DNA of 64,000 nucleotides from Patescibacteria group bacterium (GCA_041662625.1 JBAZSB010000001.1:310467-374466); one strand, 5' to 3'; positions 36,620 through 64,000 are shown, counted from the first letter of the stretch. The notes: generated by a model from the letters alone, not told the origin. Made by a program: numbers and translations.

Positions 36620-36627
36620 CCAGAAAA

Positions 36628-39882: not shown

Positions 39883-39897
39883 GGGCAGAATAAAAAA

Positions 39898-41946: not shown

Positions 41947-41957
41947 AAAATATTTTT

Positions 41958-51328: not shown

Positions 51329-51601
51329 TCATTTTATCTCAAAATCAGAAAACTCGCTAGTCGCTTCTGACCAGCTTTGTTCAATCTTTTGGACCATTGC
51401 TGGTCCAACTCCATTATAGCACCATTGAATAAAATCTTTCAAGTCTTTTTCCTCGCCTTCGGCAACTATTTCCACTATTCCACCTTCTAAGTTCCTAACA
51501 TAACCGGTAAATCTCCGTTTTTTAGCTTCATTACGGCCCACATAGCGATAACCAACCCCCTGAACCAGTCCGTGGATTTTTAAAGTCACGCGCTTAGCCA
51601 T
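51329..51601 (-). CDS. acylphosphatase
   Basis: VxGxVQGVxYR and GYVRNLEGG...VEIVAEG motifs; 90 aa. Confidence 0.75.
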   Translation of the reverse strand: MAKRVTLKIHGLVQGVGYRYVGRNEAKKRRFTGYVRNLEGGIVEIVAEGEEKDLKDFIQWCYNGVGPAMVQKIEQSWSEATSEFSDFEIK

Positions 51602-51636: not shown

Positions 51637-53121
51637 TTATAATTTTCTCACTACTCCTTGGATAGTGTCAATCTCGACTTTATCACCGTCTTTTAAGACT
51701 TTGGTAGCAATTTTTGTCCCAACAAAACAGGGAATTTTTAACTCCCGGGCGACAATCGCGGCATGACTGGCAATTCCACCTTCATTAGTTATAATAGCCA
51801 AAGCTTTACGCATCAATGGCACAAATTCTATTCTGGTCATACTGGTAACGAGAATTTCATTTTTTTTAAATCTTTCTTTGGTCGGATTAAAAATTATTCT
51901 GGCAATACCGCGAACTATTTTTTTATTACCTTGATAGGCGACAAAACCTTTCACTTCTTTGGCATTTGACTGACTAGCTAATTTAAAAATTTTATTAATT
52001 TCTTTGCCGTAGAAATATTTGATCGGCTTATTCTTTTGAAAAACTGCAAGATAATTTTTATGACGCCCCAAGACATCTGACTTTTTCAACTTTTTGTTTC
52101 TTTTGAGTAGATTTAAAACATCATAAAAATCATAGCTGACGAGTTCTTGATAAGTGAGCCCATATAATTTTGATATATCCTCAATGAAACTTGCATAATA
52201 GTAAAAAAATTTTGCCTGGCCCAATTTTCTCTGATCAATCCAATAAATTGTTCGGGAAGAGAAATAGATGTCATCTTTATCTTTTTTTAACAATTGCAGC
52301 CTTGCTAGAATTTTTCTCCTGGCAAAATTAATATCTTTAGCTTTACTAATAATAGAGTTGAGTTCTCTCTGGACTTGGTTTATATTTTTTTGCAACAATT
52401 CTTTTTTAATATCATTAATAACTGAATTGACTGACAAGTGTGTAGCGGAATAAAAATCAGATTTAATCCAAAAATGACGTTTGATATAAGATTGAATTTC
52501 ATTTTTAATTTTAGTATCACCGCTGTTTTTATAAAATAGCAAGCAAAGCTGCAAAAAATCCTTTCTTTCCGCGTTTAAAAAAGACAGTTCTTTTGGCTCG
52601 CAAAGATCGCCAAAAATTTCTCTTGCCTTGTTTGAATCAAAATTATGCCTTTTAGCAAAAGCGGGAATTATTTCAGAATTAATTATTTCTCCCTTGTCTT
52701 CACCAACAGAAGAGTAATACCAAAATATTCTGCTCGCTTTAAGAAAATTCTCAAAATGATAAAGTATTATATTTGAAGTTATTTTTTTCTCTTTCTTGTA
52801 CCGGGCCCAGACCATGTCTATTCCCCTAATTGACGTCAAATGCTTGGCTATCATTTTATTCAAACTTAGCTTGTCTTTTAAATAATTGGAGTAAACTTTT
52901 TTGGCTAACACATCAACAAGATTCTGGCTGACAATTTGAAAATGATGAATCTTTTGGTTAAACATGAAAAAAAAGAATAGCGGGCTGAAATTTACCCCGT
53001 GCACAATTGAAGAATTAACGTAAGCGTCATAAGGAACACTGGCCACGGAAAGATTGGCGTTGGCATTCTGAATGTCAATTCTATTTTTGGTTAAATATTT
53101 TTCAACCGCTTGGATATTCAT
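51637..53121 (-). CDS. protein with divergent N-terminal domain and C-terminal PEP-utilizing-enzyme mobile (swivel phospho-His) domain - paralog 1
   Basis: C-terminus GGIASHAAIVARELKIPCFVGTKIATKVLKDGDKVEIDT matches the PEP-utilizers His-domain consensus; N-domain shares the (L)YGLTYQEL block with paralogs 2-6. Confidence 0.6.
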   Translation of the reverse strand: MNIQAVEKYLTKNRIDIQNANANLSVASVPYDAYVNSSIVHGVNFSPLFFFFMFNQKIHHFQIVSQNLVDVLAKKVYSNYLKDKLSLNKMIAKHLTSIRGIDMVWARYKKEKKITSNIILYHFENFLKASRIFWYYSSVGEDKGEIINSEIIPAFAKRHNFDSNKAREIFGDLCEPKELSFLNAERKDFLQLCLLFYKNSGDTKIKNEIQSYIKRHFWIKSDFYSATHLSVNSVINDIKKELLQKNINQVQRELNSIISKAKDINFARRKILARLQLLKKDKDDIYFSSRTIYWIDQRKLGQAKFFYYYASFIEDISKLYGLTYQELVSYDFYDVLNLLKRNKKLKKSDVLGRHKNYLAVFQKNKPIKYFYGKEINKIFKLASQSNAKEVKGFVAYQGNKKIVRGIARIIFNPTKERFKKNEILVTSMTRIEFVPLMRKALAIITNEGGIASHAAIVARELKIPCFVGTKIATKVLKDGDKVEIDTIQGVVRKL

Positions 53122-53139
53122 ACTTTCTTTGAAATTTCC

Positions 53140-54084
53140 CTACAGAGTAGTAATCGGACGAGACTGGGTAATATAAAATTTACCCTTAGCATATGCCCAT
53201 TCGATGTCCTGGGGCTTAGTATAATGTCTTTCAATCTGAAGACAAATTTTGGCTAAAGCAATAATTTGATTATTACTAAGCACTTGAGCTTCTTTTTTAT
53301 TTTTTGCTACGATTTGCCAAACATTACCGCCGCTGCTCTTTCGGACTAACATTCTAGTTTTAGTCGCCAGGTTAATGTCTAAAATCTGAAAATTCCTTTT
53401 ATCTAAAACGTAACTGTCCGGCGTAATCTGACCTGAGACAATGGCTTCACCCAAGCCAAAACTGGCTTCAATAATCATTTGATTTTTATTCCTGGTCACT
53501 GGATGGACAGTGAAGGTAATGCCGGAGATTTCCGATTCCACCATTTGCTGAATAACCACCGCGACCGAAACTTTGGAATTGCGTAAACCTTTTTCAAAAC
53601 GGTAAAAAATTGCTCTGGGAGTAAAAAGAGATGACCAACACTCCTTAACTCGGCCTAATAGATTCTTTTCTGTCGTATTCAAATAGGTCTCCAGTTCCCC
53701 TGCCCAACTGGCTTGCGTTGAATCCTCAGCCGTGGCTGATGAGCGGACAGCGACAAACTTAGTTTTTAGTTTCTTGAATTCAATTAAAATTTCCTGGCCC
53801 AAATCTTTTGGCATTCTAGTGTCATGAATTAAGTCGCGGATGACATTAGAAGCCTGGTCAACTGAATTAATATCTTTATAATTTATTTTTTTCAACTGCG
53901 TCTTAATCTCTACCTGCAGATCGGTTTCAGCCAAAAATTGTTCAAAAGCTGAGGCTAAAATAACAAAGCCAGGTGGCACTGAAATTTTAGTCTGAATCAT
54001 TTCACCAAGCGACGCACCTTTGCCCCCGGCAATGCTAATATCTTTTTTAGAAATTTGCGCTAATGGTTTGATAAATTTTGACAT
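53140..54084 (-). CDS. stand-alone PPDK_N-type ATP-binding domain protein (N-terminal domain of pyruvate phosphate dikinase / PEP synthase / rifampin phosphotransferase)
   Basis: 314 aa; ISIAGGKGASLGEM...VAVRSSATAEDS...SFAGQ-like blocks typical of PF01326; no swivel or TIM-barrel domain attached. Confidence 0.6.
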   Translation of the reverse strand: MSKFIKPLAQISKKDISIAGGKGASLGEMIQTKISVPPGFVILASAFEQFLAETDLQVEIKTQLKKINYKDINSVDQASNVIRDLIHDTRMPKDLGQEILIEFKKLKTKFVAVRSSATAEDSTQASWAGELETYLNTTEKNLLGRVKECWSSLFTPRAIFYRFEKGLRNSKVSVAVVIQQMVESEISGITFTVHPVTRNKNQMIIEASFGLGEAIVSGQITPDSYVLDKRNFQILDINLATKTRMLVRKSSGGNVWQIVAKNKKEAQVLSNNQIIALAKICLQIERHYTKPQDIEWAYAKGKFYITQSRPITTL

Positions 54085-54090
54085 TTTTTA

Positions 54091-54163
54091 GAATCAAGAA
54101 TCAAGAATCAAGAATCAAGCAGTAACTTAGCACCCTTGATTCTTGATTCACGATTCATAATTC
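54091..54163. repeat. intergenic palindromic tandem-repeat hairpin: (GAATCAAG)x4 - spacer - CTTGATTCTTGATTCACGATTCATAATTC
   Basis: Immediately upstream of the PPDK_N gene start. Confidence 0.7.
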
Positions 54164-54339
54164 TTCACTATTGTTTGTTCTTTAACTTAATAATATCAGA
54201 ATTTCCTTATTTATCAAATAAATTATTTCAATAAAATACTAATTTTAGCCAAAATTAACCAAAAGTAATTGACAAAACTAGTAAAATATGCTATTATTAT
54301 ATATTGCTCTCTAAAATAAAATTGGTTAAATTCGCGCCT

Positions 54340-54397
54340 GGTTGATTCAGATAAGCGGTAAATTGGTTTTCTGGTTTACCGCTTACTTGAATCAACC
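54340..54397. repeat. 23-bp inverted repeat pair (GGTTGATTCAGATAAGCGGTAAA / TTTACCGCTTACTTGAATCAACC) separated by 12 bp, at the left edge of the GC-rich creatininase cassette
   Basis: Read directly; 21/23 complementary; preceded by a putative promoter TTGACA(54268)-17-TATTAT. Confidence 0.5.
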
Positions 54398-54464
54398 AGT
54401 GGAATAAGGAAGAAGAGGCGCCACATTACGTGGCATAACACAGATAAGGAAAGGAATTGGAGAA

Positions 54465-55241
54465 ATGCTGAGACTACAGCAGATGTCCCACACACAGGTA
54501 GAAACGCACCTGCGAGAACACCCCAACGCGGTCGCGGTATTGGCGGTTGGCAGTACGGAACAGCATGGCTTTGGTCCGTGCGGCACCGACCACCTGATTG
54601 CCAAGTATCTGTCGCATCGTGTGACAGAAGGCGTCGAGAACACCGTGCTCGTACCCTCGATTGCCTACGGCATGAGCAAGCACCACACGTGGGCCAGCGG
54701 CACGATTTCGCTGCCGTGGGAACTCTTCCAGGGATTGGTCGCCAACGTATTGGAGGAGCTCTACCGGAGCGGGTTTCGGCGGGTGGTTATCATCAACGGA
54801 CACGGGGGCAATCACGAGCCGATCGAGATGGCCATCAAGTCCGTCCGGACCTTCCACAAAGATCTGCAGGTGCAGAACCGCCTGATGATCTACGTCCAGG
54901 TCGAGGAGAAGTACGAGAACCCGATTCGCGAGCAGATGCTCGAACTCTGCGCGGCAGTCGGCCAGCAAGAACTCTCGCATGCCGATGCACCGGAGTTTTC
55001 CCTCTTGTTCGCCATGTTCCCCACACTCCAGCAATATCTGGACGCCGACCTCGCCGAAATGCCGAAACTACCGGATTTGTCGGCGGTGACCGGCGTACGC
55101 GATCCCCAGGAGTGGAAAGCGAAGATGGCACCTTGCCGCGGTGGCAAGGGCGATCCCCGCGAAGCCAACCTGGAAGTTGGCGCAAAAGTCGTTCAGGCTC
55201 TCGTTGCCCAGTTAGTCGCAGACGCGACTACGGGCTGGTAA
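54465..55241 (+). CDS. creatininase-family amidohydrolase, GC-rich foreign-looking gene
   Basis: AVGSTEQHG and INGHGGN metal-binding motifs; very GC-rich region producing many overlapping spurious ORFs on both strands. Confidence 0.6.
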   Translation: MLRLQQMSHTQVETHLREHPNAVAVLAVGSTEQHGFGPCGTDHLIAKYLSHRVTEGVENTVLVPSIAYGMSKHHTWASGTISLPWELFQGLVANVLEELYRSGFRRVVIINGHGGNHEPIEMAIKSVRTFHKDLQVQNRLMIYVQVEEKYENPIREQMLELCAAVGQQELSHADAPEFSLLFAMFPTLQQYLDADLAEMPKLPDLSAVTGVRDPQEWKAKMAPCRGGKGDPREANLEVGAKVVQALVAQLVADATTGW

Positions 55242-55261
55242 GAGCCCCATCGTAAGACGAC

Positions 55262-55310
55262 AAAGAGGCGTACCTCGAGTTTTACTCTTGGTGCGCCTCT
55301 TTCCGTTTAG
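55262..55310 (+). terminator. 13-bp-stem hairpin terminating the creatininase cassette
   Basis: AAAGAGGCGTACC-...-GGTGCGCCTCTTT (one G.U). Confidence 0.5.
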
Positions 55311-55326
55311 ACTGTATTTTATTATT

Positions 55327-56160
55327 TTAAAGTTTACCCCGATTAATCCAAGCTACCGAAAAAATGACTGGCCAAAACCAGTTTTTATTATTTTTTGGCG
55401 CATTATTGTAATAGACACCTTGATTCAAATAAGCAATCCCTAGCCAGCGCCAACCGCCCAAATAAGCCAAACCTTTAGTCCAGGTATTGCCAATCATACC
55501 AATTGAAGGACAAATCAGATTCCGGCCTTCCCAGATTGCTTTTTCGTATTCAATATAATATTCTTTGACATCATAACCTTTTTCTCGAAGTTCATTGGCA
55601 ATAATTTCACAACGTTTAGCAATTTCTTCAACCAGGGCAAACTCCCCCACCCGGCCAGTCAGCCGACGGGTGCTGGTAATGGCAATGGTTGGTTTAATGC
55701 CTAAATTATTTTCTAACCAGGCAATGGCTTGGGAAATTTCATTTCGTTTTGATTCCAAAGTCAGGCCGGAATAATTAGAGATACTGGGCGTAGCAAACCA
55801 TTGACCGTCTTTGGCAAAAAAAGAAACCGAGATTTTTTCTTGGTCTTCGGGCCGGCCATAGGCTTGCAAAAATAATTTATGAGTGTAAGAATCTTTGAGC
55901 TGAGCACGCATTAAGCCTTCAACTTTACCCGATTTAACTAGATCAACAAGTACTTGGCTAGCTTCCTCTTCACTTTGAGTCGGAATACAATTTAAACCAT
56001 CAATTTTTGAACCAACCACGACTAAATCGGCGTAGTCACTGGCTTGAATCAAACTTTTGACGACTTCAGGTTGGGGATCAATAATACCAATGCCAATTTT
56101 CCGACGTTTTTGTTTAGCTTCGGTTAAAAATCGTTGTTCAATTTCACTGAGTTTTTCCAT
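55327..56160 (-). CDS. PTA/PTB (phosphate acyltransferase) family-like protein, paralog A (tentative)
   Basis: Block pattern KIGIGIIDPQPEVVKSL...DLVVVG, VSFFAKD, KPTIAITSTRR, NLICPSIGMIGNTWTKG loosely parallels phosphotransacetylase blocks; start set at internal MEKLSEIEQ to avoid overlap with the upstream paralog. Confidence 0.35.
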   Translation of the reverse strand: MEKLSEIEQRFLTEAKQKRRKIGIGIIDPQPEVVKSLIQASDYADLVVVGSKIDGLNCIPTQSEEEASQVLVDLVKSGKVEGLMRAQLKDSYTHKLFLQAYGRPEDQEKISVSFFAKDGQWFATPSISNYSGLTLESKRNEISQAIAWLENNLGIKPTIAITSTRRLTGRVGEFALVEEIAKRCEIIANELREKGYDVKEYYIEYEKAIWEGRNLICPSIGMIGNTWTKGLAYLGGWRWLGIAYLNQGVYYNNAPKNNKNWFWPVIFSVAWINRGKL

Positions 56161-56173
56161 ATGTCTATAAGGC

Positions 56174-57001
56174 CTATTTAACTTGGTTGTTACACAACGC
56201 CACGGCATGAATGATGTGCCAAAAAAAGTCTTTTTCATTCCTTGAGCCGTCTTCATAGACGACGCCCAAATCGAGGTAATTAGTCGTCAGTAATCGCCAG
56301 TCACCCAGATAAAGCAGCGATTTAATCCAGGAGTTGCCGACAAAGCCAATCGAAGGCACAATCAGATTGCGCCTGTCCCAGACCGCGGTTTCATATTCCA
56401 TGTAATATTCTTTGGCATCATAGCCCTTGCTGACTAAATATTCATAAAATTTAGTGCACTGTTCAGTAATATCATCAATCAACTTATATTTACCACGGTT
56501 ACTGGATGGCCGCAAAATTCCCATCACGGCAATCTTTGGCTCTACCCCTAAATCTTCTTTCATATGCCGGATAATCCTTTCCACTTCAAAAATTTTATCT
56601 TCTAAAGTTAAGCCTTGGTAGACAGAAGAAGTTGTAATAAAAAAGCTGTAATCGGCCTTTTGCATAATGCCAACATAAACTTTGTGGCTACTGGGAATTG
56701 GCGTCATCTGAAACTGCTTAAAAAACACCTCCAAAGTGTAAGAATCCTTGACCTGGCCGCGGACGATACCTTCGACTTTTTTTTCTTTAAGTAATTGGAT
56801 TAAAATTTCACTGGCTTTGTCCTGATCTGGCTCAACAATATTTTCAAAACCCTTTACTTTTGCCCCAACCACCACTAAATCAGCGTACTTTGAAGCCTTC
56901 TTTAAGCTTTTGATAGTTTCCGGAACCGGCCGCATAATGGCAATGCCGATTTTTCTTTTCTGCTTTTTGGCTTGCTCCAAAAATAATTTAGAAAAATCCA
57001 T
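56174..57001 (-). CDS. PTA/PTB family-like protein, paralog B (tentative)
   Basis: Clear paralog of 55327-56160 (KIGIAIMRPVPETIKSL...DLVVVG...NLIVPSIGFVGNSWIKS). Confidence 0.35.
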   Translation of the reverse strand: MDFSKLFLEQAKKQKRKIGIAIMRPVPETIKSLKKASKYADLVVVGAKVKGFENIVEPDQDKASEILIQLLKEKKVEGIVRGQVKDSYTLEVFFKQFQMTPIPSSHKVYVGIMQKADYSFFITTSSVYQGLTLEDKIFEVERIIRHMKEDLGVEPKIAVMGILRPSSNRGKYKLIDDITEQCTKFYEYLVSKGYDAKEYYMEYETAVWDRRNLIVPSIGFVGNSWIKSLLYLGDWRLLTTNYLDLGVVYEDGSRNEKDFFWHIIHAVALCNNQVK

Positions 57002-57010
57002 ATATTTTAA

Positions 57011-57784
57011 TTAATCATTAAAGATAAAAATTGGCTCTTGATAATGCCGGATTTTATTTTCTTCAAATCTTTGCCTGATTAGTTTTTTCAGCTGCTCGTT
57101 TTTCCAAACCAGTGACTTATTTTGCCGCAAAATCGTCATTGGTAAATCCAGCCTTAAAGCTCGCCCTGAAATTAAATGGCGGGTGATACCTGAAGGCACC
57201 TTTAAATTTTTTTCCGCCACTAAAATTATGTCTTGAGGTGTGAATTTTGGAAAAACAACTAAGGTCTTGCCTTGCTCATTTTTAGAAAAATCACTGGCAT
57301 TATCTAAACGATGGAATTTATAATGCTTATTATACAAATCAACCATTTTATTTAAAGCTTCAATTTGCTTAAAGAAATCCCCTTTTTTAATCGGGCGACA
57401 GATAATCTTGTTCCTCCGCAATTTGAATTTTTTAATCATTGGCTTACCAACCGTCTTTTTGAGCTGTAGAAAAAAGTCTTTAGCCGTAATCCCCAAAACC
57501 AAATGATTCCAGGTTTTTAATTCTAAGCCGGGGTTATCAGAAGTAACAATTTGAACAACAATATCTTTAAAGCCTAATTTTTTGAAAACCGTAGTTCGGT
57601 TCGCCCCATCCAAAACCACGAACTTTCCGGATTGACCGATTGGTGCGACTAACGGTGGATTAGTAAAAATTTTGTCTCTTTTTATTTTGTTACTTAGCCT
57701 TTTGACCCGGCTAGGATCAACAAATTCGTGTAGAACTAATTTTGACAGACTAACAACTTTTAGATTAGGTAAATTTTTGGTCAT
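57011..57784 (-). CDS. ParB/Srx-fold domain protein (possible phosphotransferase or nuclease-like)
   Basis: N-terminal LHEFVDP...R...L...FVVLDGANRT pattern of ParB/sulfiredoxin-like domains. Confidence 0.35.
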   Translation of the reverse strand: MTKNLPNLKVVSLSKLVLHEFVDPSRVKRLSNKIKRDKIFTNPPLVAPIGQSGKFVVLDGANRTTVFKKLGFKDIVVQIVTSDNPGLELKTWNHLVLGITAKDFFLQLKKTVGKPMIKKFKLRRNKIICRPIKKGDFFKQIEALNKMVDLYNKHYKFHRLDNASDFSKNEQGKTLVVFPKFTPQDIILVAEKNLKVPSGITRHLISGRALRLDLPMTILRQNKSLVWKNEQLKKLIRQRFEENKIRHYQEPIFIFND

Positions 57785-57786
57785 AA

Positions 57787-58422
57787 TTAATTACTTACTT
57801 TTTTCTCATTAGCTAAAAAATCATATAAACTGCCAATTTCCCAATAAGTCTTTTTATCTTTTATGCCCGAATTATTATTTAAAATATGATACAGGCGGGC
57901 GGAAAAATCAGGGTACTTGTCCTTTACTGATTTTACTGCTTCCAGGAAAAATTGACAATTTGTTTCTTTATCATCAGTATAAATAACAGTTTTATAGCCC
58001 TGCTGATATTTCTTCTCTAGGTAGTCAACCAGCATCTCTTTGGTTTTTTTGTTAGTCTCACCATAATCAAAAGTTGAATTGAGTTTTTGAAAACAGGACC
58101 GAAAATCAAAGCCAGTTTTCGGAACTAAGTATTCCGCCCGCCAATCCATCTGCTCCTGCATCCCGGTACTGAAAGTCTCATTATATTTGGTCCAAGATAA
58201 AACTTCTTTGGCACCAGGCTGCAAAGCCAGCTGAAAATACCAACCCTCTTTATAAGGAATTTCATACATTTGTTCAAACTTTCGATCAGGAACATCTTTA
58301 ATTTTTTTACCCAGTTGCGCTTCGATCCAAGCCTCAATACTTGGATATTTTGTTTCTTTCACATCCCACTCTTCATGAAAAATCGTGCCCGCCATATCCC
58401 AAAGATAAAGTGTTTTTGTCAT
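57787..58422 (-). CDS. HAD-like hydrolase-fold protein with degenerate motif I (tentative)
   Basis: YLWDMAGTI (DxAGT instead of DxDGT) and a later YTDDKETN motif. Confidence 0.3.
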   Translation of the reverse strand: MTKTLYLWDMAGTIFHEEWDVKETKYPSIEAWIEAQLGKKIKDVPDRKFEQMYEIPYKEGWYFQLALQPGAKEVLSWTKYNETFSTGMQEQMDWRAEYLVPKTGFDFRSCFQKLNSTFDYGETNKKTKEMLVDYLEKKYQQGYKTVIYTDDKETNCQFFLEAVKSVKDKYPDFSARLYHILNNNSGIKDKKTYWEIGSLYDFLANEKKVSN

Positions 58423-59021
58423 ATCTTTTTAGTTTTTTTTAATAATATTAAAGCCACAATAACTCCATTACCTAATAAGCCATTCACAATCGGGTGAACA
58501 TATGCGATCCAATCTACACCAGGATCAAATAATAAAGAAATTGTTGAAAATAGATACGCTACAATAACAGTACTCCAGGCCACATAATGTTCTTTTCCAG
58601 TTCCTTTTATTATTCCAAAAATGGTAGGGATATAAGAAATGATATAGGTTCCCTGCAAAAGGAGATTAGCGACTCTGTCATTTGATGTAATTTGCCAAAA
58701 GAATCCTATCACCAGAGCTAAGACAAAAATAATAATTTCGATATTAGACACCCTTGCAAACCGCCCCTTAATTCGGGCATATACTAAGATGATAAAGACT
58801 GATAAAGTTACAGCAATTACAATAAAACTTTGCCATAAATTATCATTGGTTACAGAAAAATAAGTGATTGCATTAATAATCCCGATTAAAAACCAAATTC
58901 CCCAAGTTGACGGGTTGGGCGTTGATTGACCTTTAAATATCTGTTTAAAATAAAGCCCATAGGCAATCAATGCCGTTATACCGGCCAATAATCCAAAAAT
59001 GTATGAATAATTCATAGTCAT
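58419..59021 (-). CDS. hypothetical polytopic membrane protein
   Basis: 200 aa; 6 hydrophobic helices. Confidence 0.4.
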   Translation of the reverse strand: MTMNYSYIFGLLAGITALIAYGLYFKQIFKGQSTPNPSTWGIWFLIGIINAITYFSVTNDNLWQSFIVIAVTLSVFIILVYARIKGRFARVSNIEIIIFVLALVIGFFWQITSNDRVANLLLQGTYIISYIPTIFGIIKGTGKEHYVAWSTVIVAYLFSTISLLFDPGVDWIAYVHPIVNGLLGNGVIVALILLKKTKKI

Positions 59022-59028
59022 TATTAAG

Positions 59029-60612
59029 TTATTTCCTTTTTAAAATAGTTATAACACCATGATTACCGTTAACTTCCACCAAATCCCCATCTTTCAGAAC
59101 TACGGTAGCGATTTTAGTACCAATGACGCAAGGAATGCCAAATTCTCTGGCCACAATCGCGGCATGGGAGGTTACACCGCCTTCATCGGTGACAATCGCC
59201 GCGGCTTTCTTAATGCCCATAATATAATCCGGCCGGGTCATCACCGCCACTAAAATATCACCCTGATTAATTTTACCAACTTCATGAGCACTCCGAACAA
59301 CTTTAACAATGCCGCGCACTTTGCCGCTGGAAGCACTTAAACCACGAAAATCATTGATATTCTTTTTGATATTTGATGTAAATAACATCTTGGCAATTTC
59401 TTTTGATTTACGCCCAAAGACCATTTCATAATGATTTCGGCAATGATAGATTAAACTAAAAATACGACGAGCCCGAGCTTCTTGTTTTGAAACCCTATGA
59501 CTATTTTTCGAAAATAACGCCAATACTTCAACTGCAAACATATACTTCATTTCGTTGAGTGAGTAGCCAAAACGCTTACCAATTTCTTGCAAAAAGATTG
59601 ATCCGTAATGCGTTGTCCAAAGCGTGTATTTTTTCCTCTCGTCTTGCCAATAAGTAAAGGTTTCTGATATCTCAATTAAATTTTTGATGTCTTTCGGGGG
59701 CTTTAATCGTTTCAATATTTGCTTTTTAATCCGGCGGTTAATCGCTGGGGCTGATTCAATCCGTTTAATCTGGCTAGCGATATCAATTGAACTTCCAAGT
59801 AAAGCTTTAATTTCTTTGATAAAGTATTTGGGAGTTAAAATGTAATTATTCACATAATTATTTTTACTCCAAAAATAATTTTTTTGATGACCTAAAAGTA
59901 ACTCATATTCTTTGGGAAAATCTTTTAACTTTTGCCAAATTTCACTTACTTTCTTTTCAATAAAAATCTGCCTTAACTTTTTATTTTTGGAAACTAATCG
60001 CGCGACTCTCAATAATGATAATTCACTTTCATTAATAAATGATAAACTCGCCGGCGCCGTCAATTGAGAAAATATTTTACCTTGTCCCTTTTTAATTCTC
60101 TTTCTATCCAAAAAATTTTTAATTCTTTCTTGGATAATGGCGTCACTGCCTAAGGCAAAACCGTCTATAACTGAACTCATTGTTACCCACCGGAAATAAC
60201 AGTCAATAAACTTCTTATATAAACAATACAATTTTTGATCTGAAAGAGTAGCTAATTTAATATTTTCCAAGTCCTGACAAAATTCAATGAACTTTATTTT
60301 ATCTTTGTCCCATTTAATCATTGTCCTCTTACCAATATCTGATTCGCGATTACAACGCTTAACAAATAGGTTAGTGATTCGTTTAAAATCGGCTTGATCA
60401 GCATAATAATCAGTTTTATCATCACTAAATATGACGACATGTTTCCTTTCTTCGCCGCCTTTCATTTTTCGAGGCTCTGGTTTTAGCTCCATTTCTCCTG
60501 TTAAATACAAAAGATTTGGGCAGCCATCAAATCTTTGGTGATACCATTCCTTTTTTCTTAATTTCTTTAGATCACTCTTGATCAAGCCTTTTTTAAATTT
60601 CATGTAATTCAT
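59029..60612 (-). CDS. divergent N-domain + C-terminal PEP-utilizing swivel His-domain protein - paralog 2
   Basis: C-terminus GGVTSHAAIVAREFGIPCVIGTKIATVVLKDGDLVEVNG. Confidence 0.6.
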   Translation of the reverse strand: MNYMKFKKGLIKSDLKKLRKKEWYHQRFDGCPNLLYLTGEMELKPEPRKMKGGEERKHVVIFSDDKTDYYADQADFKRITNLFVKRCNRESDIGKRTMIKWDKDKIKFIEFCQDLENIKLATLSDQKLYCLYKKFIDCYFRWVTMSSVIDGFALGSDAIIQERIKNFLDRKRIKKGQGKIFSQLTAPASLSFINESELSLLRVARLVSKNKKLRQIFIEKKVSEIWQKLKDFPKEYELLLGHQKNYFWSKNNYVNNYILTPKYFIKEIKALLGSSIDIASQIKRIESAPAINRRIKKQILKRLKPPKDIKNLIEISETFTYWQDERKKYTLWTTHYGSIFLQEIGKRFGYSLNEMKYMFAVEVLALFSKNSHRVSKQEARARRIFSLIYHCRNHYEMVFGRKSKEIAKMLFTSNIKKNINDFRGLSASSGKVRGIVKVVRSAHEVGKINQGDILVAVMTRPDYIMGIKKAAAIVTDEGGVTSHAAIVAREFGIPCVIGTKIATVVLKDGDLVEVNGNHGVITILKRK

Positions 60613-61949
60613 AATTTTTTTACTGTGCCTTTATCAGCATCAACCTCAATTAAATCATCATCCTTAAAAACTTTAGTCGCAATTTCAGTGCCAACCACGC
60701 AAGGAATTTTCATCTCCCGGGCCACAATTGCCGAATGTGAGGTGAAACCGCCGATATCTGCCACAATCGCTGAGACTTTGTGTAAAACCGGCATATAATC
60801 CGGGGTGGTAATTTCACAAACAATAATATCGCCTTTTTCAACTTTACTGAATTCTTTGGTGGTAAGTACAACTTTAGCTCTCCCTCGGACGACACCAGCT
60901 GAAACACCTTTGCCAGAAACTTGATTTTTCTTTTTTGGAACTTGATTAAAAAGTTGAATGATTAAATCAGCCTTTTTGCCAGTATAGATTTTATTGCCGA
61001 TGTAGACATATTTCTGACGGCGCAATTGCAGTTCGGCCGGAATCTTCTTTGTTTTGACCTCCTCTGGGGTTAAATGAATCAATTCACCATAGCTTAAGTT
61101 AAGTCGTTTTGCTACCTCGTTTAAAAGACGGCAAAAATTAAAACTGCCGCGGATAAACTGCTCGAAACGGTAATCTCTGATATACAAAAGTTTTTGACTA
61201 ATATCGGCTTTTTTCTTAAGTTCTTTAGGCAAGCGCTGGTATAATCTTTTAAATTCTCTTTCCCCTTTCTTATGATTTTTGAGTAAAGTGGCGAGTTGCT
61301 GAGTGGGATTTTTCATTGTCCTGAGTTGGCCGGTAATAAATTTATTCGTCAAAGCTTTATAACGTGATAATTCCAGATTGCTCCACTCCCATTTTTTTTT
61401 GAAAGTCGCTAAAGAAATTCGACCCAGTTTCAAAAGTAAAAAATCTTTACTTCTTCTCAGGTGATAAGTGTTATATAAAGGGTAGCTTAAGATATCAAAA
61501 TCTTTTTCGCTAAAACCGTGCTGCTGCAAAGTTTTTATCATTTTTTTCTCAAAATGAGAGGGAAAATAAATCGGAATATCTATCACTCTCATATACCGAC
61601 CCCACTGATCACACATCTTTTGGTAATCAACTATTAATTCTTTCCATAAAATTTTGGAAAAATCTTTTTGCCGGAGCTGTTCTGAAAATTTGACATAATC
61701 AGCCGCTCTTTCTTCGACTAAACTTACTGCTGATAAAATTTTACCGTCGGGAAAATCATAGGCAGCAATATCTTTCTTATTTAAAAACCACTGGCCATTA
61801 ATATAAATCAGTTCAACATTAGGGAATCCTTCTTGCTTTAACAAACGGCGTTGATTAAGCTCAAAATAAGAAAGTAAAACACTTTCTTTGATCGAACAAA
61901 TTCTAACATAACTCTCTGGCTTAATCTTTTTTAGCATAGCCTGACTCAT
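60609..61949 (-). CDS. divergent N-domain + C-terminal PEP-utilizing swivel His-domain protein - paralog 3
   Basis: C-terminus GGFTSHSAIVAREMKIPCVVGTEIATKVFKDDDLIEVDA; 4-nt overlap with paralog 2. Confidence 0.6.
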   Translation of the reverse strand: MSQAMLKKIKPESYVRICSIKESVLLSYFELNQRRLLKQEGFPNVELIYINGQWFLNKKDIAAYDFPDGKILSAVSLVEERAADYVKFSEQLRQKDFSKILWKELIVDYQKMCDQWGRYMRVIDIPIYFPSHFEKKMIKTLQQHGFSEKDFDILSYPLYNTYHLRRSKDFLLLKLGRISLATFKKKWEWSNLELSRYKALTNKFITGQLRTMKNPTQQLATLLKNHKKGEREFKRLYQRLPKELKKKADISQKLLYIRDYRFEQFIRGSFNFCRLLNEVAKRLNLSYGELIHLTPEEVKTKKIPAELQLRRQKYVYIGNKIYTGKKADLIIQLFNQVPKKKNQVSGKGVSAGVVRGRAKVVLTTKEFSKVEKGDIIVCEITTPDYMPVLHKVSAIVADIGGFTSHSAIVAREMKIPCVVGTEIATKVFKDDDLIEVDADKGTVKKL

Positions 61950-63403
61950 ATTTTTCTTACCACTCCTTTGTTGGCATCGACCTCAACCATATCTCCGGTC
62001 TTGAAAACCTGAGTAGCAACTTTAGTCCCAACCACACCAGGAATTCCTAGCTCCCGCGAAACAATGGCGGCGTGGCAAGTAATTCCGCCATCGTCAGTAA
62101 CAATGGCACCAGCCTTACGCATAGCTGGCAAATAATCAATTGTAGTCATAGAAGTTACTAAAATACCACCCTTTTTGACAATTTTAATCGCCTCTTTGGC
62201 TCCTTTAACAATATATGCTTTTCCAATCACTTTACCCCGGCTAGCTGGCACACCGGTAACCTGCGAAGTCTTACCAGTTTTAATAACCGAGAGAACAAGT
62301 TTATCTAAAACTTTTTTGGCATCACTGCCTAAATATTCCTTAACTTTGCCTTTTTTAATTACCCAAGTTAAACCCTGCCGGCGTTTGGCAATAACTGACT
62401 GATTAACTTTGATGTTTTTCAAACACAAATTTTTAACTTCTGAATTGCTATAAAACAATAAGTCTTGATATTTAATTTCAAATCTTTTGGCCATTTCGTT
62501 TAGAGCAGGGAAAATAATTTGGTTGGAACGCATCTGAGTTTCCTTGCGCCAATCATGGAACATGGAAAAAGTATCCAGGAGCTGAAAATACGGCCTTAGA
62601 CTACTAAATGACAATTTATATTTCTTGATTAGGTTGTTTCTCCTGGCTTTGGCCGATTTAACAAAATTATTAATTTGTTTTAATTCTTTCTTTCTTAAAT
62701 TAAGACTTTTTTTCTTTAGTTTCTTAATCTCTTGTTTGATATGATTGACAGTTAATTCATTACTGCCATCCCAACTCATCATAACCCAGCCGAAACGTTT
62801 AACCGTTTTTTGCAAAGCCGTTTGACTAACAACCTTTTTGAAAGAAAAATCTAATGTAGTCTTTTTGTAAATCAAACTCTCGGAAGCATAGGCGGGCTCC
62901 ATCAACTGGTGTAGATCAGTTTCATTTATTTTATCTCTAGTTAAACGCCTCAGTTCTTCCCCAAAGATTTTACCAAAAAAATCATCAAATGAATCCATTG
63001 AATACTCGGAAAAGCTAATACTGGCCAAACATACCATTTGGGCTTGATGATATAAATTGTATAATTCTTTATTAGAAATATTTTTTACGGCAATATTTTT
63101 TAAAGGCAACAAAATCTTATTGACTTCAAAATGAGATTTCTTATACAAAGAAAAAATTCCATTTAAATTATTTTTGCTGCTAAGCCAAGACTTAAGCCAG
63201 CATCTCATAGTCTTTTCTAATAAATCAGCATCGCGCGACCACCAAAAATAGTCATGATAAAAAGTCATAACGTCGGAGTAATTGGCCAAATAAGGATATT
63301 TTTTACCCGGCGAAAGTTTAATCAAATCCAAATAAGCCGAGACACCTTGTGGGTAGAGCTGATCCCGTTCATAAACCCGCCAACGGACTTGTGTTTTAGA
63401 CAT
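61946..63403 (-). CDS. divergent N-domain + C-terminal PEP-utilizing swivel His-domain protein - paralog 4
   Basis: C-terminus GGITCHAAIVSRELGIPGVVGTKVATQVFKTGDMVEVDA; 4-nt overlap with paralog 3. Confidence 0.6.
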   Translation of the reverse strand: MSKTQVRWRVYERDQLYPQGVSAYLDLIKLSPGKKYPYLANYSDVMTFYHDYFWWSRDADLLEKTMRCWLKSWLSSKNNLNGIFSLYKKSHFEVNKILLPLKNIAVKNISNKELYNLYHQAQMVCLASISFSEYSMDSFDDFFGKIFGEELRRLTRDKINETDLHQLMEPAYASESLIYKKTTLDFSFKKVVSQTALQKTVKRFGWVMMSWDGSNELTVNHIKQEIKKLKKKSLNLRKKELKQINNFVKSAKARRNNLIKKYKLSFSSLRPYFQLLDTFSMFHDWRKETQMRSNQIIFPALNEMAKRFEIKYQDLLFYSNSEVKNLCLKNIKVNQSVIAKRRQGLTWVIKKGKVKEYLGSDAKKVLDKLVLSVIKTGKTSQVTGVPASRGKVIGKAYIVKGAKEAIKIVKKGGILVTSMTTIDYLPAMRKAGAIVTDDGGITCHAAIVSRELGIPGVVGTKVATQVFKTGDMVEVDANKGVVRKI

Positions 63404-63406
63404 ATC

Positions 63407-64000
63407 TTATTTTTTAATTTTCCTCACTTCACCCCGCTCCGCATCAACTTCGACCAAGTCACCATTTTTTAAAACTAATGTAGCCAATTTTGTACCAACA
63501 ATGCAAGGCACTCCCATTTCCCGAGAGATAATGGCGGCATGCGAAGTCAATCCCCCTTCATCGGTTACGACAGCCTTAGCTTTTTTGAATATCGAAACCA
63601 TCTCCGGACTGGTGGCCGGAGTAACCAAAATCTCCCCAGTTTTAAAGCCTTTCAGGCTACTTAGATCTAAAATTACCCGTACCTTGCCTTTCACTTTGCC
63701 TGGATAGGCACTGAGTCCACTAACTTCCTCAAGGTCTGTCTTTTGCTTAGTAGTTATTTGCTGAAGGAGCTTTTTTGCCGCAAGACCGGTGAAAACTTGG
63801 TAGCTATTTCTTCTAAAATTGTAGACTGAACCGTTAATCCTTTTTTTAATCAGCTTCCGATCGACCCGGTCGGTTCTAAGAGCTTTTTCGATTTCTGGAG
63901 TCAATAAAAATTTAAGTTCTTTTTCGGTTAAACTAAGCCGCTTGGCGATTTCATTCAGTAATTTTCTTTCATAAAAAATTGCTTTAACTGCTAAAGGCTT
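63407..64000 (-). CDS. divergent N-domain + C-terminal PEP-utilizing swivel His-domain protein - paralog 5 (5' end beyond window)
   Basis: C-terminus GGLTSHAAIISREMGVPCIVGTKLATLVLKNGDLVEVDA. The frame stays open upstream of the TTG at 63904 to the window edge. The upstream peptide ...NEIAKRLSLTEKELKFLLTPEIEKAL aligns with the LNEVAKRLNLSYGELIHLTPEEV block of the other paralogs. Confidence 0.55.
   Translation of the reverse strand, partial: KPLAVKAIFYERKLLNEIAKRLSLTEKELKFLLTPEIEKALRTDRVDRKLIKKRINGSVYNFRRNSYQVFTGLAAKKLLQQITTKQKTDLEEVSGLSAYPGKVKGKVRVILDLSSLKGFKTGEILVTPATSPEMVSIFKKAKAVVTDEGGLTSHAAIISREMGVPCIVGTKLATLVLKNGDLVEVDAERGEVRKIKK

What the first reader, a model, noticed from the sequence alone, without database searches (positions are those of the whole stretch)
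51637..64000. Split dikinase-like phosphotransfer system: one PPDK_N ATP-binding protein plus six paralogous swivel-His proteins with divergent N-domains
Seen in sequence: six minus-strand genes (51637-53121, 59029-60612, 60609-61949, 61946-63403, 63407->64000 and one more starting beyond the window edge) each end with the PEP-utilizing-enzyme mobile domain (GG(I/V/F/L)(A/T)SHAAI(V/I)(A/S)RE(L/M/F)(K/G)IPCxVGTK(I/L)AT...DGD.VE(V/I)D). Ahead of it each carries a 300-450-aa Lys-rich N-terminal domain. These N-domains are clearly paralogous (shared LNEVAKRL..Y.EL..LTPEEV block) but highly diverged. Four of them are translationally coupled (ATGA overlaps). None carries the PEP/pyruvate TIM-barrel domain.
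- A separate 314-aa gene (53140-54084) encodes only the PPDK_N-type ATP-grasp domain. It sits directly upstream of paralog 1.
- Established knowledge: in PEP synthase and PPDK the order is ATP-grasp, swivel His, TIM barrel. In rifampin phosphotransferase the order is ATP-grasp (about 314 aa), substrate-binding domain, C-terminal swivel His.
- Inference: this looks like an RPH-like architecture split into a shared ATP-loading subunit and a diversified set of substrate-binding/His-carrier subunits. That would be a multi-substrate phosphotransferase family (small-molecule or antibiotic modification, or a phosphorelay).
- The size and tandem amplification of the family in a streamlined genome is unusual.
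Basis: partly seen in the sequence, partly recalled or inferred. Interest (0 to 1): 0.85.

Follow-up and report, generated by a model that had tools for sequence, protein, structure and literature searches.

The report
One ATP loader, many dikinase subunits
A tiny-genome (CPR/Patescibacteria) bacterium encodes one stand-alone ATP-binding dikinase subunit and at least five very different phosphate-carrying subunits built like the drug-binding and histidine parts of rifampin phosphotransferase; the same one-to-many layout recurs across CPR bacteria and DPANN archaea, and I found no paper describing it.

Summary
Five minus-strand genes, not six, end in the PEP-utilizers mobile (swivel-His) domain. 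The fifth runs off the window edge. One 314-aa gene is a PPDK_N ATP-grasp domain only. No gene has the PEP/pyruvate TIM barrel.

What differs is the one-to-many layout. In 78 related CPR/DPANN loci the median is 4 paralogs within ±10 kb (maximum 10). A PPDK_N gene was found in 32 loci, and only one locus has more than one. Natural fusions exist: one ≥3,331-aa ORF is PPDK_N plus seven modules.

The paralogs are ancient, distinct subfamilies rather than recent duplicates. Only 4 of 246 have their nearest relative in the same locus. The His domain and a D-x-R-K phosphotransfer motif are conserved; the rest of the N-domain is not.

Substrates are unknown. Pta-fold genes, phosphatases and an acylphosphatase recur as neighbours. 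I rate this a new variant of a known kind, interest about 0.66.

The parts
63407..64000 (-). Paralog 5 (H-type subunit), C-terminal 197 aa only. The gene continues beyond the window edge.
   Evidence: PF00391 E 1.4e-27. The frame is open to base 64000. An orthologue of 476 aa is present in L081.
61946..63403 (-). Paralog 4, 485 aa: RIF-binding-domain-like N-domain plus a C-terminal swivel-His domain (GGITCHAAIV).
   Evidence: PF00391 E 1e-23. Aligns to RPH-family NCBIfam models from about residue 260-313. N-domain orthologues of 50% identity occur in L003 (CPR) and L018 (Woesearchaeota).
60609..61949 (-). Paralog 3, 446 aa (GGFTSHSAIV). ATGA overlaps with both neighbouring genes.
   Evidence: PF00391 E 7.6e-26. 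Overlaps shown. N-domain orthologue of 45% identity in L065.
59029..60612 (-). Paralog 2, 527 aa. This is the most widely conserved subfamily, 40-70% identical across CPR and DPANN.
58419..59021 (-). 200-aa multi-pass membrane protein with no family hit, in the same tightly packed gene string.
   Evidence: Conserved next to p2 in L001/L002.
57787..58422 (-). 211-aa protein with no Pfam or NCBIfam hit. Its N-terminal 'LWDMAGT' resembles a HAD motif I by eye only. It recurs next to p2 orthologues.
   Evidence: Found in L006, L019, L021, L026, L045, L059, L082 and L083.
57011..57784 (-). SbnI/SerK-like (ParB/Srx-type) putative small-molecule kinase.
   Evidence: NCBIfam NF033589 SbnI, E 2.4e-28, full length but below the curated cut-off. 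SerK E 2.5e-11. Also present in L026, L082 and L083.
56174..57001 (-). MtxX/Mmp4-like protein b, a phosphotransacetylase-fold homologue.
   Evidence: TIGR03270 E 1.2e-14, below cut-off. hhalign against Pta genes embedded in the arrays: probability 92.4%, E 5e-7, 270 columns.
55327..56160 (-). MtxX/Mmp4-like protein a, a paralogue of b. The probable start is Met33 of the longest ORF (55327-56256).
54095..54165 (-). Long hairpin built from GAATCAA repeats in the leader, ending just before the PPDK_N start codon. It may be regulatory.
   Evidence: MFE of the folded 131-nt stretch 54070-54200 that contains it: -40.1 kcal/mol; z -6.5 against shuffles. Sequence. A promoter-like site lies at 54217-54190 on the minus strand.
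53140..54084 (-). Stand-alone ATP-grasp (PPDK_N) subunit, 314 aa. It is the only one in the gene cluster examined (53-64 kb).
   Evidence: PF01326 E 4.9e-99. Aligns to RPH-Lm 7-316 and Pyrococcus-type PEP synthase 8a8e, with RPH Arg117 and Thr136 conserved, and ends at 'RPITTL'.
51637..53121 (-). Paralog 1, 494 aa (GGIASHAAIV), 18 nt downstream of PPDK_N.
   Evidence: PF00391 E 2.7e-22. N-domain orthologues of 32-34% identity in L037, L067, L075 and L078. Junction.
51329..51601 (-). Acylphosphatase, 35 nt downstream of paralog 1.
   Evidence: PF00708 E 2.1e-23. The same adjacency occurs in L003.

Best explanation
This is a split, one-to-many version of the rifampin-phosphotransferase (RPH) type of small-molecule dikinase.

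**Proposed mechanism**
- The 314-aa ATP-grasp protein (53140-54084) binds ATP. It transfers the beta-phosphate, via a pyrophosphoryl intermediate, to the conserved histidine in the C-terminal swivel domain of each paralog (p1-p5, and probably a sixth).
- Each charged swivel domain then swings back onto its own roughly 350-420-aa helical N-domain, which is homologous to the rifampin-binding domain of RPH.
- There, a conserved D-x-R-K site passes the phosphate to a substrate held in a pocket that differs between paralogs.
- The net reaction per paralog would be ATP + X + H2O -> AMP + X-P + Pi.

**Status of each step**
- Shown here by sequence and predicted structure: domain identities and boundaries, conserved catalytic residues, gene linkage, the one-to-many ratio in related loci, natural fusions, and the antiquity of the paralog subfamilies.
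- Inferred: that one ATP-grasp subunit charges all paralogs, that the acceptors are small molecules, and the direction of the reaction.
- Unknown: the substrates. Recurrent neighbours (Pta-fold proteins, an acylphosphatase, HAD and histidine phosphatases, an SbnI-like kinase) suggest phosphorylated or acyl-phosphate metabolites rather than antibiotics.
For: **Domain content**
- PF01326 only in 53140-54084. PF00391 only, at the C-terminus, in all five paralogs.

**ATP-grasp subunit**
- It aligns end to end with RPH-Lm residues 7-316, keeps Arg117 and Thr136, and stops at the domain boundary. PMC4844700 reports that mutating these two residues abolishes resistance.

**Catalytic histidine**
- The paralog motif TSHAAIVARE aligns with TSHAAIVSRE of PEP synthase 8a8e.
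- His is 100% conserved in 288 paralogs.

**N-domain fold**
- AF2 model of p2: pLDDT 95.2, pTM 0.92.
- This mirrors what was reported for HpeH (PMC12167813).

**Phosphotransfer site**
- The profile aligns to RPH 509-866, with 'WQDERK' over RPH 'YREYPK' (Arg666, Glu667, Lys670).
- D324, R326 and K327 are 79-89% conserved across more than 100 N-domain subfamilies. The remainder of the N-domain has a mean top-residue frequency of 0.20-0.35 by region.

**Linkage and one-to-many ratio**
- Gene junctions in the window are tight or overlapping.
- In 78 CPR/DPANN loci the median is 4 and the maximum 10 paralogs per ±10 kb.
- 32 loci contain PPDK_N, and only one has more than one copy.
- 24 PPDK_N ORFs are stand-alone, all on the array strand, and 15 lie within 150 nt of a paralog.

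**Rosetta-stone fusions**
- L030: a ≥3,331-aa ORF made of PPDK_N plus 7 modules, confirmed stop-free.
- L073: 1,679 aa, PPDK_N plus 3 modules. L074: PPDK_N plus 2 modules. L063: an 884-aa RPH-like single fusion.

**Non-redundancy**
- Only 4 of 246 paralogs have their nearest N-domain relative in the same locus. 173 have an orthologue scoring at least 150 bits in another species.

**Precedent**
- HpeHI, CreHI and PpsAB are experimentally characterised two-component dikinases of this design (PMC12167813).
Against: - There is no biochemical evidence for any member of this CPR/DPANN family.
- The exact equivalence of the D-x-R-K motif to RPH Arg666/Glu667 is off by register in the HMM alignment. 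Q323 sits on Arg666 and D324 on Glu667.
- 46 of 78 loci show no PPDK_N within ±10 kb. Whole genomes could not be counted, so the genome-wide one-to-many ratio is not established.
- The swivel domains show no clear within-genome co-adaptation to a shared partner: 58.7% within-locus versus 57.1% between-locus identity.
- Characterised two-component dikinases are 1:1, and their subunits did not form stable complexes (PMC12167813).
- The N-domains do not reach any curated family threshold.
- In the window, PPDK_N and p1 are separated from p2-p5 by seven other genes, one of them on the opposite strand.
Confidence: 0.65

Rival explanations
1. Activating or ligase enzymes of the PigC/RedH/HapC type, or acyl-phosphate-forming enzymes. 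Here the phosphohistidine would phosphorylate a carbonyl or carboxyl oxygen to activate it for condensation or acyl transfer. The product would be passed to the Pta-fold proteins in the cluster, rather than a stable phosphate ester being made.
For: - p2 aligns over residues 96-523 to prodigiosin ligase PigC 452-881.
- A PF01515 phosphate acetyltransferase gene sits inside the array, -75 to +42 nt from a paralog (or overlapping the PPDK_N ORF), in 12 loci.
- The window's two MtxX-like genes are Pta-fold homologues.
- An acylphosphatase follows p1 here and the last paralog in L003.
Against: - The PigC score is 82 bits against a cut-off of 1300.
- No second-substrate or condensation partner is evident.
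- The Pta association is seen in only a minority of loci.
- The same upstream chemistry (ATP-grasp to His) applies, so this is a variant of the main explanation rather than a true alternative.
Confidence: 0.15
2. The system runs mainly in reverse, or as an ATP-independent phosphotransfer hub. Each paralog would take phosphate from a different scavenged high-energy phospho-compound. It would then pass it to other acceptors or, through the single ATP-grasp subunit, regenerate ATP from AMP, as PPDK does in PPi-dependent glycolysis.
For: - HpeH alone catalyses phosphotransfer between phospho-substrates without ATP or HpeI (PMC12167813).
- PPDK-type chemistry is reversible (established knowledge).
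- The hosts are CPR/DPANN organisms, reported in the literature to have limited energy metabolism (abstracts listed).
- Pta, which makes acyl phosphates, is embedded in the arrays.
Against: - RPH-type enzymes hydrolyse the gamma-phosphate, which makes the forward reaction effectively irreversible.
- No thermodynamic or experimental support exists.
- Phosphatases in the neighbourhood argue for phosphorylated products rather than donors.
Confidence: 0.08
3. Fragments or decayed copies of PEP synthase/PPDK, or a PTS Enzyme-I-like phosphorelay that uses PEP.
For: - Databases name the proteins 'PEP-utilizing enzyme' or 'phosphoenolpyruvate synthase/pyruvate phosphate dikinase'.
- The best NCBIfam hits for the swivel and ATP-grasp parts are PEP synthase models.
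Against: - There is no PEP/pyruvate TIM-barrel domain anywhere in the paralogs.
- Scores are far below the equivalog cut-offs, for example 352 against 598 bits.
- The domain order is the reverse of PEP synthase.
- The ORFs are full-length and conserved, with orthologues of 40-70% identity across phyla.
- The fold model is high-confidence.
- Enzyme I matches only about 100 residues.
- No PTS or HPr family surfaced among the window's cluster genes or the recurrent neighbour families scanned.
Confidence: 0.03
4. Non-catalytic ligand sensors or regulators derived from dikinases. The phosphorylation state of the swivel His would report ATP or metabolite levels.
For: - A PPS-like protein acting as a regulator (PspR) has been described in Haloferax (PMC10948481, listed).
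- TrmB-family regulators recur near the arrays in 12 archaeal loci.
Against: - Catalytic residues of both half-reactions are conserved across more than 100 subfamilies.
- There are no DNA-binding or output domains.
- Five to ten sensors per roughly 1-Mb genome seems excessive.
Confidence: 0.05

Closest known systems
Two-component small-molecule dikinases HpeHI, CreHI and phenylphosphate synthase PpsAB (PMC12167813)
   Same: - A separate ATP-grasp subunit (HpeI/PpsB).
- A second subunit made of an RPH rifampin-binding-like domain followed by a C-terminal swivel-His domain (HpeH/PpsA).
- Adjacent genes.
[quoted passage not shown]
   Different: - Those systems are 1:1 pairs acting on phenolic compounds in aromatic catabolism by free-living Proteobacteria and Actinobacteria.
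- Here one ATP-grasp gene accompanies five to six (elsewhere up to ten) H-type genes with mutually unalignable pockets, in CPR/DPANN symbiont-type genomes.
- The H subunits are shorter: 446-527 aa against about 71 kDa for HpeH.
- The ~600-aa 'PRK08296' NCBIfam models, which share the C-terminal swivel-domain layout, match only the swivel domain. Whether those models represent the PpsA/HpeH clade is my recollection and was not verified.
Rifampin phosphotransferase RPH-Lm (PDB 5FBS/5HV1; PMC4844700)
   Same: - The same three domains in the same order.
- The ATP-grasp aligns 7-316, and the N-domain plus swivel aligns 509-866.
- A conserved acidic/basic phosphotransfer motif lies at the position of Arg666-Glu667-Lys670.
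   Different: - RPH is a single 867-aa polypeptide with one substrate domain.
- Identity is 19% in the N-domain.
- Scores are 293 and 52-79 bits against a family cut-off of 999.
- Nothing indicates rifamycin as a substrate.
Prodigiosin ligases PigC/RedH/HapC
   Same: RPH-type architecture. p2 aligns over about 430 residues to the PigC C-terminal two-thirds.
   Different: - Those are single polypeptides.
- They perform ATP-dependent condensation in pigment biosynthesis.
- The score is far below the cut-off (82 against 1300 bits).
PEP synthase / pyruvate phosphate dikinase
   Same: The ATP-grasp and swivel-His domains are clearly homologous: 8a8e E 1e-73 and 1e-26. The proposed two-step His-mediated dikinase chemistry is the same.
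   Different: - There is no PEP/pyruvate TIM-barrel domain.
- The His domain is C-terminal rather than central.
- A helical RPH-like domain stands in place of the TIM barrel.
- The system is split into separate genes.

Membership tests
Two-component RPH-like small-molecule dikinase (HpeHI/CreHI/PpsAB type) | Stand-alone ATP-grasp (PPDK_N) subunit that ends at the domain boundary and keeps the nucleotide-phosphate ligands. | tested here: met
   PF01326 E 5e-99. Aligns to RPH 7-316 with Arg117 and Thr136 conserved, and ends at RPITTL.
Two-component RPH-like small-molecule dikinase (HpeHI/CreHI/PpsAB type) | Second subunit made of a rifampin-binding-domain-like fold followed by a C-terminal swivel domain. 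| tested here: met
Two-component RPH-like small-molecule dikinase (HpeHI/CreHI/PpsAB type) | Catalytic His in the T/S-x-x-G-G-x-x-x-H motif. | tested here: met
   All five window paralogs carry the motif. His is 100% conserved in 288 family members.
Two-component RPH-like small-molecule dikinase (HpeHI/CreHI/PpsAB type) | Second-site phosphotransfer residues equivalent to RPH Arg666/Glu667/Lys670. | tested here: inconclusive
   D324 aligns with Glu667 and K327 with Lys670. The conserved Arg (R326) is two positions away from Arg666 in the HMM alignment. I had no access to model coordinates to check the geometry.
Two-component RPH-like small-molecule dikinase (HpeHI/CreHI/PpsAB type) | One ATP-grasp gene paired with one H-type gene. 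| tested here: not met
   The ratio is 1:5 in the window and 1:6 in L082. It reaches 1:10 in the loci, and 1:7 fused in L030.
Two-component RPH-like small-molecule dikinase (HpeHI/CreHI/PpsAB type) | Dikinase activity: ATP gives AMP + Pi + phosphorylated substrate, and activity is abolished by His substitution. | not testable with these tools
   This requires purified proteins.
PEP synthase / PPDK | C-terminal PEP/pyruvate-binding TIM-barrel domain, and the order ATP-grasp, His, TIM barrel. | tested here: not met
   Only PF00391 or PF01326 is found. NCBIfam PEP synthase scores are 105-352 bits against cut-offs of 598-740.
Rifamycin phosphotransferase (NF041857 / NF000283) | Single ~865-aa polypeptide scoring above the curated equivalog cut-off. 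| tested here: not met
   293 bits for the ATP-grasp and 52-79 bits for the paralogs, against a cut-off of 999. The genes are separate.
Prodigiosin ligase PigC/RedH | Score above the equivalog cut-off, and a prodiginine cluster context. | tested here: not met
   65-82 bits for the paralogs against cut-offs of 1300-1350. No pig/red genes are nearby.
PTS Enzyme I | HPr-binding subdomain plus a PEP-binding TIM barrel. | tested here: not met
   The match is limited to about 50-130 residues of the swivel domain.
Known anti-phage defence systems (PADLOC) | A hit to any defence-system model. | tested here: not met
   No hits for PPDK_N or the paralogs.

The most novel reading that the evidence does not exclude
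CPR bacteria and DPANN archaea share a previously undescribed modular 'phosphoryl distribution hub'.
- A single ATP-grasp charging subunit would serve a cassette of up to about ten ancient, non-redundant swivel-His/substrate modules. These are sometimes fused into one megaprotein of at least 3,300 aa.
- The modules would be exchanged between the two domains of life.
- The hub would be used to activate or trap a panel of host-derived metabolites, possibly via acyl-phosphates handed to embedded Pta-fold enzymes.
- In that reading it is a core adaptation to the scavenging lifestyle. It would also be a systematic source of false 'PEP synthase/PPDK' calls in metabolic reconstructions of these organisms.
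Probability: 0.25. Interest if true: 0.85.

Novelty: new variant of a known kind. Interest (0 to 1): 0.66.

Why it matters
**A large uncharacterised investment in very small genomes.** CPR and DPANN organisms have genomes of about 1 Mb and few recognisable pathways. This family takes about 1% of the genome here: roughly 7.4 kb is visible in the window, and about 9.7 kb if there are six paralogs, on a 922-kb contig. It recurs in the related CPR and DPANN loci retrieved. An N-domain-only profile finds 2,947 clusters at 50% identity.

**A new way of using swivel-His dikinase chemistry.** If one ATP-loading subunit really serves many substrate modules, that extends this chemistry beyond the known 1:1 pairs. 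It would also give a defined, testable entry point into what these organisms phosphorylate or salvage.

**Annotation risk.** Public sources name these proteins 'PEP-utilizing enzyme' or 'phosphoenolpyruvate synthase/pyruvate phosphate dikinase'. Because they lack the pyruvate/PEP domain, metabolic reconstructions that take these names at face value would wrongly infer a gluconeogenic or glycolytic step.

Tried and rejected
**Dead ends and unavailable data**
- I tried to read past the window edge. The window's own 922-kb contig could not be retrieved, and it was not in the GTDB representative set or the JGI scan. Only relatives of 72-75% identity were obtained.
- The AFDB Foldseek library was not available.
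- No complex prediction tool was available.

**Tests that came back negative or weak**
- Co-adaptation of swivel domains to a shared partner: within-locus identity is 58.7% against 57.1% between loci, and the nearest core comes from the same locus in 15 of 289 cases against 4.9 expected. This is too weak to use.
- Recent tandem amplification is rejected: only 4 of 246 paralogs have their nearest relative in the same locus.
- Assembly duplication is rejected: pairwise identity is 28-41%.
- Defence system: no PADLOC hits.
- Structured RNA: no Rfam hits in 51-64 kb.
- tRNA: none in the window.

**Literature**
- Six searches for any description of these arrays in CPR/DPANN found nothing. This is absence in the searchable library only.

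**Caution on taxonomy**
- Some locus titles ('uncultured Gammaproteobacteria', 'Methanosarcinales', Ignavibacterium, Aminicenantes) are probably placeholder or mis-binned labels. I did not rely on them.

Full report
**1. What is in the sequence**

The region 51.3-64.0 kb is almost entirely minus-strand coding sequence.

Five ORFs end in the PEP-utilizers mobile (swivel phosphohistidine) domain, PF00391, with E-values from 3e-22 to 1e-27:
- p1, 51637-53121
- p2, 59029-60612
- p3, 60609-61949
- p4, 61946-63403
- p5, 63407 to the window edge; its frame is open to base 64000

A tblastn of the domain against the whole window finds exactly these five copies.

The paralogs are 28-41% identical. Their similarity extends through the N-terminal 340-420 residues, so they are true, old paralogs and not assembly artefacts.

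The ORF 53140-54084 (314 aa) is a PPDK_N ATP-grasp domain and nothing else (PF01326, E 5e-99). No paralog has a PEP/pyruvate TIM-barrel hit.

Gene junctions are tight:

| Junction | Spacing |
|---|---|
| p5 > p4 | 3 nt |
| p4 > p3 | ATGA overlap |
| p3 > p2 | ATGA overlap |
| p2 > membrane protein | 7 nt |
| membrane protein > 211-aa protein | ATGA overlap |
| 211-aa protein > SbnI-like | 2 nt |
| SbnI-like > MtxX-like b | 9 nt |
| MtxX-like b > MtxX-like a | about 13 nt, if the latter starts at Met33 |
| MtxX-like a > PPDK_N | 1.24-kb gap holding an opposite-strand gene |
| PPDK_N > p1 | 18 nt |
| p1 > acylphosphatase | 35 nt |
| acylphosphatase > L9 | 9 nt |

**2. What the proteins are**

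*The ATP-grasp protein.* It aligns end to end with residues 7-316 of Listeria rifampin phosphotransferase (RPH-Lm, 5FBS; E 1.5e-66) and with Pyrococcus-type PEP synthase (8a8e; E 1e-73). It stops at 'RPITTL', exactly where the RPH ATP-grasp domain ends. It keeps RPH Arg117 and Thr136. PMC4844700 reports that mutating these alpha-phosphate ligands abolishes resistance.

*The swivel domain.* In the paralogs it aligns with PEP synthase around the catalytic histidine (TSHAAIVARE against TSHAAIVSRE).

*The N-domain.* I built a 100-sequence alignment (A2) and obtained an AlphaFold2 model of p2 with mean pLDDT 95.2 and pTM 0.92.
- Every other strong hit covers only the ~100-residue swivel domain: the pyruvate kinase C-terminal domain, Enzyme I and PPDK.
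- A profile of A2 aligns positions 176-519 to RPH 509-866 (E 2e-27).
- In that alignment the family's 'WQDERK' lies over RPH 'YREYPK'. This contains Arg666, Glu667 and Lys670, the residues shown by mutagenesis to be needed for the second phosphotransfer (PMC4844700).

These proteins are the RIF-binding-like plus swivel part of an RPH-type dikinase, and 53140-54084 is the detached ATP-grasp part.

**3. Distribution and anatomy elsewhere**

p2 has more than 3,500 homologues. The top 120 are nearly all about 500-530 aa, have PF00391 as their only recorded Pfam domain, and are 41-70% identical. Where sources name them, they come from Patescibacteria (CPR) and DPANN archaea and are called 'PEP-utilizing enzyme', 'phosphohistidine swiveling domain-containing protein' or 'phosphoenolpyruvate synthase/pyruvate phosphate dikinase'. 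The window's own protein is on record on a 922-kb contig.

A scan of one genome per GTDB species returned 78 loci from CPR phyla and from Woese-, Micr-, Nano- and Iainarchaeota. I annotated their ORFs with the window's proteins:
- The median is 4 paralogs of at least 300 aa within ±10 kb of the p2 homologue, and the maximum is 10.
- 32 loci contain a PPDK_N ORF, and only one locus has more than one.
- 24 of these ORFs are stand-alone (about 290-480 aa stop to stop), all on the array strand. 15 lie within 150 nt of a paralog.

An N-domain-only profile (A3) finds 2,947 clusters at 50% identity with E ≤ 1e-3, and 1,237 with E ≤ 1e-10, among 1.84 billion representatives. Some of these proteins contain 2-4 modules.

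**4. Natural fusions**

In L030 (a Parcubacteria MAG) one reading frame of at least 3,331 codons without a stop encodes PPDK_N followed by seven N-domain+swivel-His modules. I confirmed this by direct translation.
- L073 (an archaeon) has PPDK_N plus 3 modules in 1,679 aa.
- L074 has PPDK_N plus 2 modules.
- L063 is an 884-aa RPH-like single fusion.

These Rosetta-stone fusions are the strongest available evidence that one ATP-grasp domain works with many modules.

**5. The paralogs are ancient and non-redundant**
- N-domains of 284 full-length paralogs from the loci fall into more than 100 similarity clusters.
- Only 4 of 246 paralogs in multi-paralog loci have their nearest N-domain relative in the same locus. 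173 have an orthologue of at least 150 bits in another species.
- Each window paralog has specific orthologues elsewhere. Some are in loci titled as DPANN archaea: p4 is 50% identical to L018 (Woesearchaeota) and p1 is 33% identical to L037.
- In a 288-sequence alignment the swivel domain is highly conserved (mean top-residue frequency 0.61; His 100%).
- In the N-domain only P187, W248, D324, R326, K327, R347, E362 and R382 reach 79-92%. The remainder has a mean top-residue frequency of 0.20-0.35 by region.
- This is the pattern expected of a fixed catalytic site with diversified binding pockets.

This is a conserved cassette of old subfamilies, not a recent expansion.

**6. Close relatives and the window edge**

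The window's own contig could not be fetched. Two relatives were informative:
- L082 (p4 orthologue 72% identical) carries, in the same order: two further paralogs, p4, p3, p2, the 211-aa protein, the SbnI-like gene, an MtxX-like gene, PPDK_N and a p1-position paralog. That makes six paralogs and one ATP-grasp. It has no creatininase gene.
- L081 has a 476-aa orthologue of p5.

A sixth paralog beyond the edge is thus plausible but not shown.

**7. Neighbours**

*In the window*
- 57011-57784 resembles the serine kinases SbnI and SerK (E 2e-28 and 2.5e-11, both below cut-off).
- 55327-56256 and 56174-57001 resemble methanogenesis marker MtxX.
- 51329-51601 is an acylphosphatase.

*Across the loci*, the recurrent neighbours are:
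- HAD hydrolases in 14 loci, and the 211-aa protein in 5
- a hexapeptide transferase in 13 loci
- TrmB regulators in 12 loci
- histidine-phosphatase-superfamily proteins in 7 loci, plus a further cluster in 4
- a PF01515 phosphate acetyltransferase in 12 loci, embedded in the array -75 to +42 nt from a paralog, or overlapping the PPDK_N ORF

hhalign shows that the MtxX-like proteins are full-length Pta-fold homologues (probability 92.4%, E 5e-7, 270 columns). Pta-fold genes therefore accompany the arrays in both CPR and DPANN.

This points to phospho- or acyl-phosphate metabolism but does not identify substrates. There are no PADLOC hits.

**8. Comparison with what is known**

Split RPH-type dikinases have been characterised experimentally: phenylphosphate synthase PpsAB, CreHI and HpeHI. 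The findings below were reported for HpeHI (PMC12167813).
- The ATP-grasp subunit HpeI is homologous to the RPH ATP-grasp domain.
- HpeH is homologous to the RIF-binding plus swivel domains.
- RPH is the only PDB entry that aligns over most of HpeH.
- Substitution of the His abolishes activity.

The present system has the same design. It differs in four ways:
- the gene ratio is one to many;
- its N-domains reach no curated family threshold;
- it occurs in CPR/DPANN;
- multi-module fusions exist.

It is not a PEP synthase, PPDK, RPH, PigC or Enzyme I by the defining features tested.

I found no paper describing these arrays. This is absence from the searchable library only.

**9. Verdict**
- Most likely mechanism (confidence about 0.65): one ATP-grasp subunit charges the swivel His of each paralog, and each paralog then phosphorylates its own substrate at a conserved D-x-R-K site.
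- The homology and architecture are shown. The shared-loader step, the small-molecule acceptors and the reaction direction are inferred. The substrates are unknown.
- Novelty: a new variant of a known kind.
- Interest: 0.66.

Noticed in passing
window 54465-55241 (+), flanks 54336-54400 and 55268-55300: A creatininase-family gene (PF02633, E 7e-47) of about 60% GC sits on the opposite strand in a 35-40% GC region. It has its own promoter-like site (54269-54297, 11 of 12 matches) and inverted repeats on both flanks, noted by eye in the sequence. It interrupts the dikinase cluster and is absent from the syntenic relative L082, so it looks like a recent horizontal insertion. Weak creatininase-like hits also lie near MtxX-like genes in two Uhrbacteria loci (L020, L023).
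   Followed up: partly
window 54095-54165 (-): A hairpin of about 32 bp built from GAATCAA heptamer repeats ends a few bases before the PPDK_N start codon. The folded 131-nt stretch (54070-54200) that contains it has an MFE of -40.1 kcal/mol, z -6.5, and none of 200 shuffles fold as well. There is no Rfam match. It may control translation or transcription of the ATP-grasp gene.
   Followed up: partly
L030:2-9997 (+) (JBDKJL010000038.1, Parcubacteria MAG): A single stop-free ORF of at least 3,331 aa encodes PPDK_N plus seven N-domain/swivel-His modules. By eye, the last ~40 residues of the modules look nearly identical to each other (…GDEVEVDANNGVVRILKR), which hints at local homogenisation within this one gene.
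   Followed up: partly
L010, L011, L012, L013, L014, L016, L018, L034, L042, L048, L065, L069 (coordinates): A bona fide phosphate acetyltransferase gene (PF01515, E 3e-94 for the representative) is embedded co-directionally inside the dikinase arrays of DPANN archaea, often overlapping the neighbouring paralog by a few bases.
   Followed up: partly
window 55327-57001 (-): Two tandem paralogues resemble 'methanogenesis marker 4' (MtxX) in a CPR bacterium, a family described as methanogen-specific. Profile comparison shows that they are Pta-fold proteins.
   Followed up: partly
window 57011-57784 (-): An SbnI/SerK-like ParB/Srx-fold putative kinase (full-length match to SbnI, E 2.4e-28, below cut-off) lies in the same gene string. 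It is conserved in L026, L082 and L083.
   Followed up: no
window 35531-43013 (+): A type IV pilus/pseudopilin gene set (T2SSF, N_methyl pilin, PilX_N, PilM) includes a 1,084-aa protein with CarboxypepD_reg and weak BNR hits.
   Followed up: no
locus titles (e.g. L004, L005, L009, L011): Several MAG records titled 'uncultured Gammaproteobacteria' or 'uncultured Methanosarcinales' carry gene content typical of CPR/DPANN arrays. The titles are probably placeholder taxonomy.
   Followed up: no
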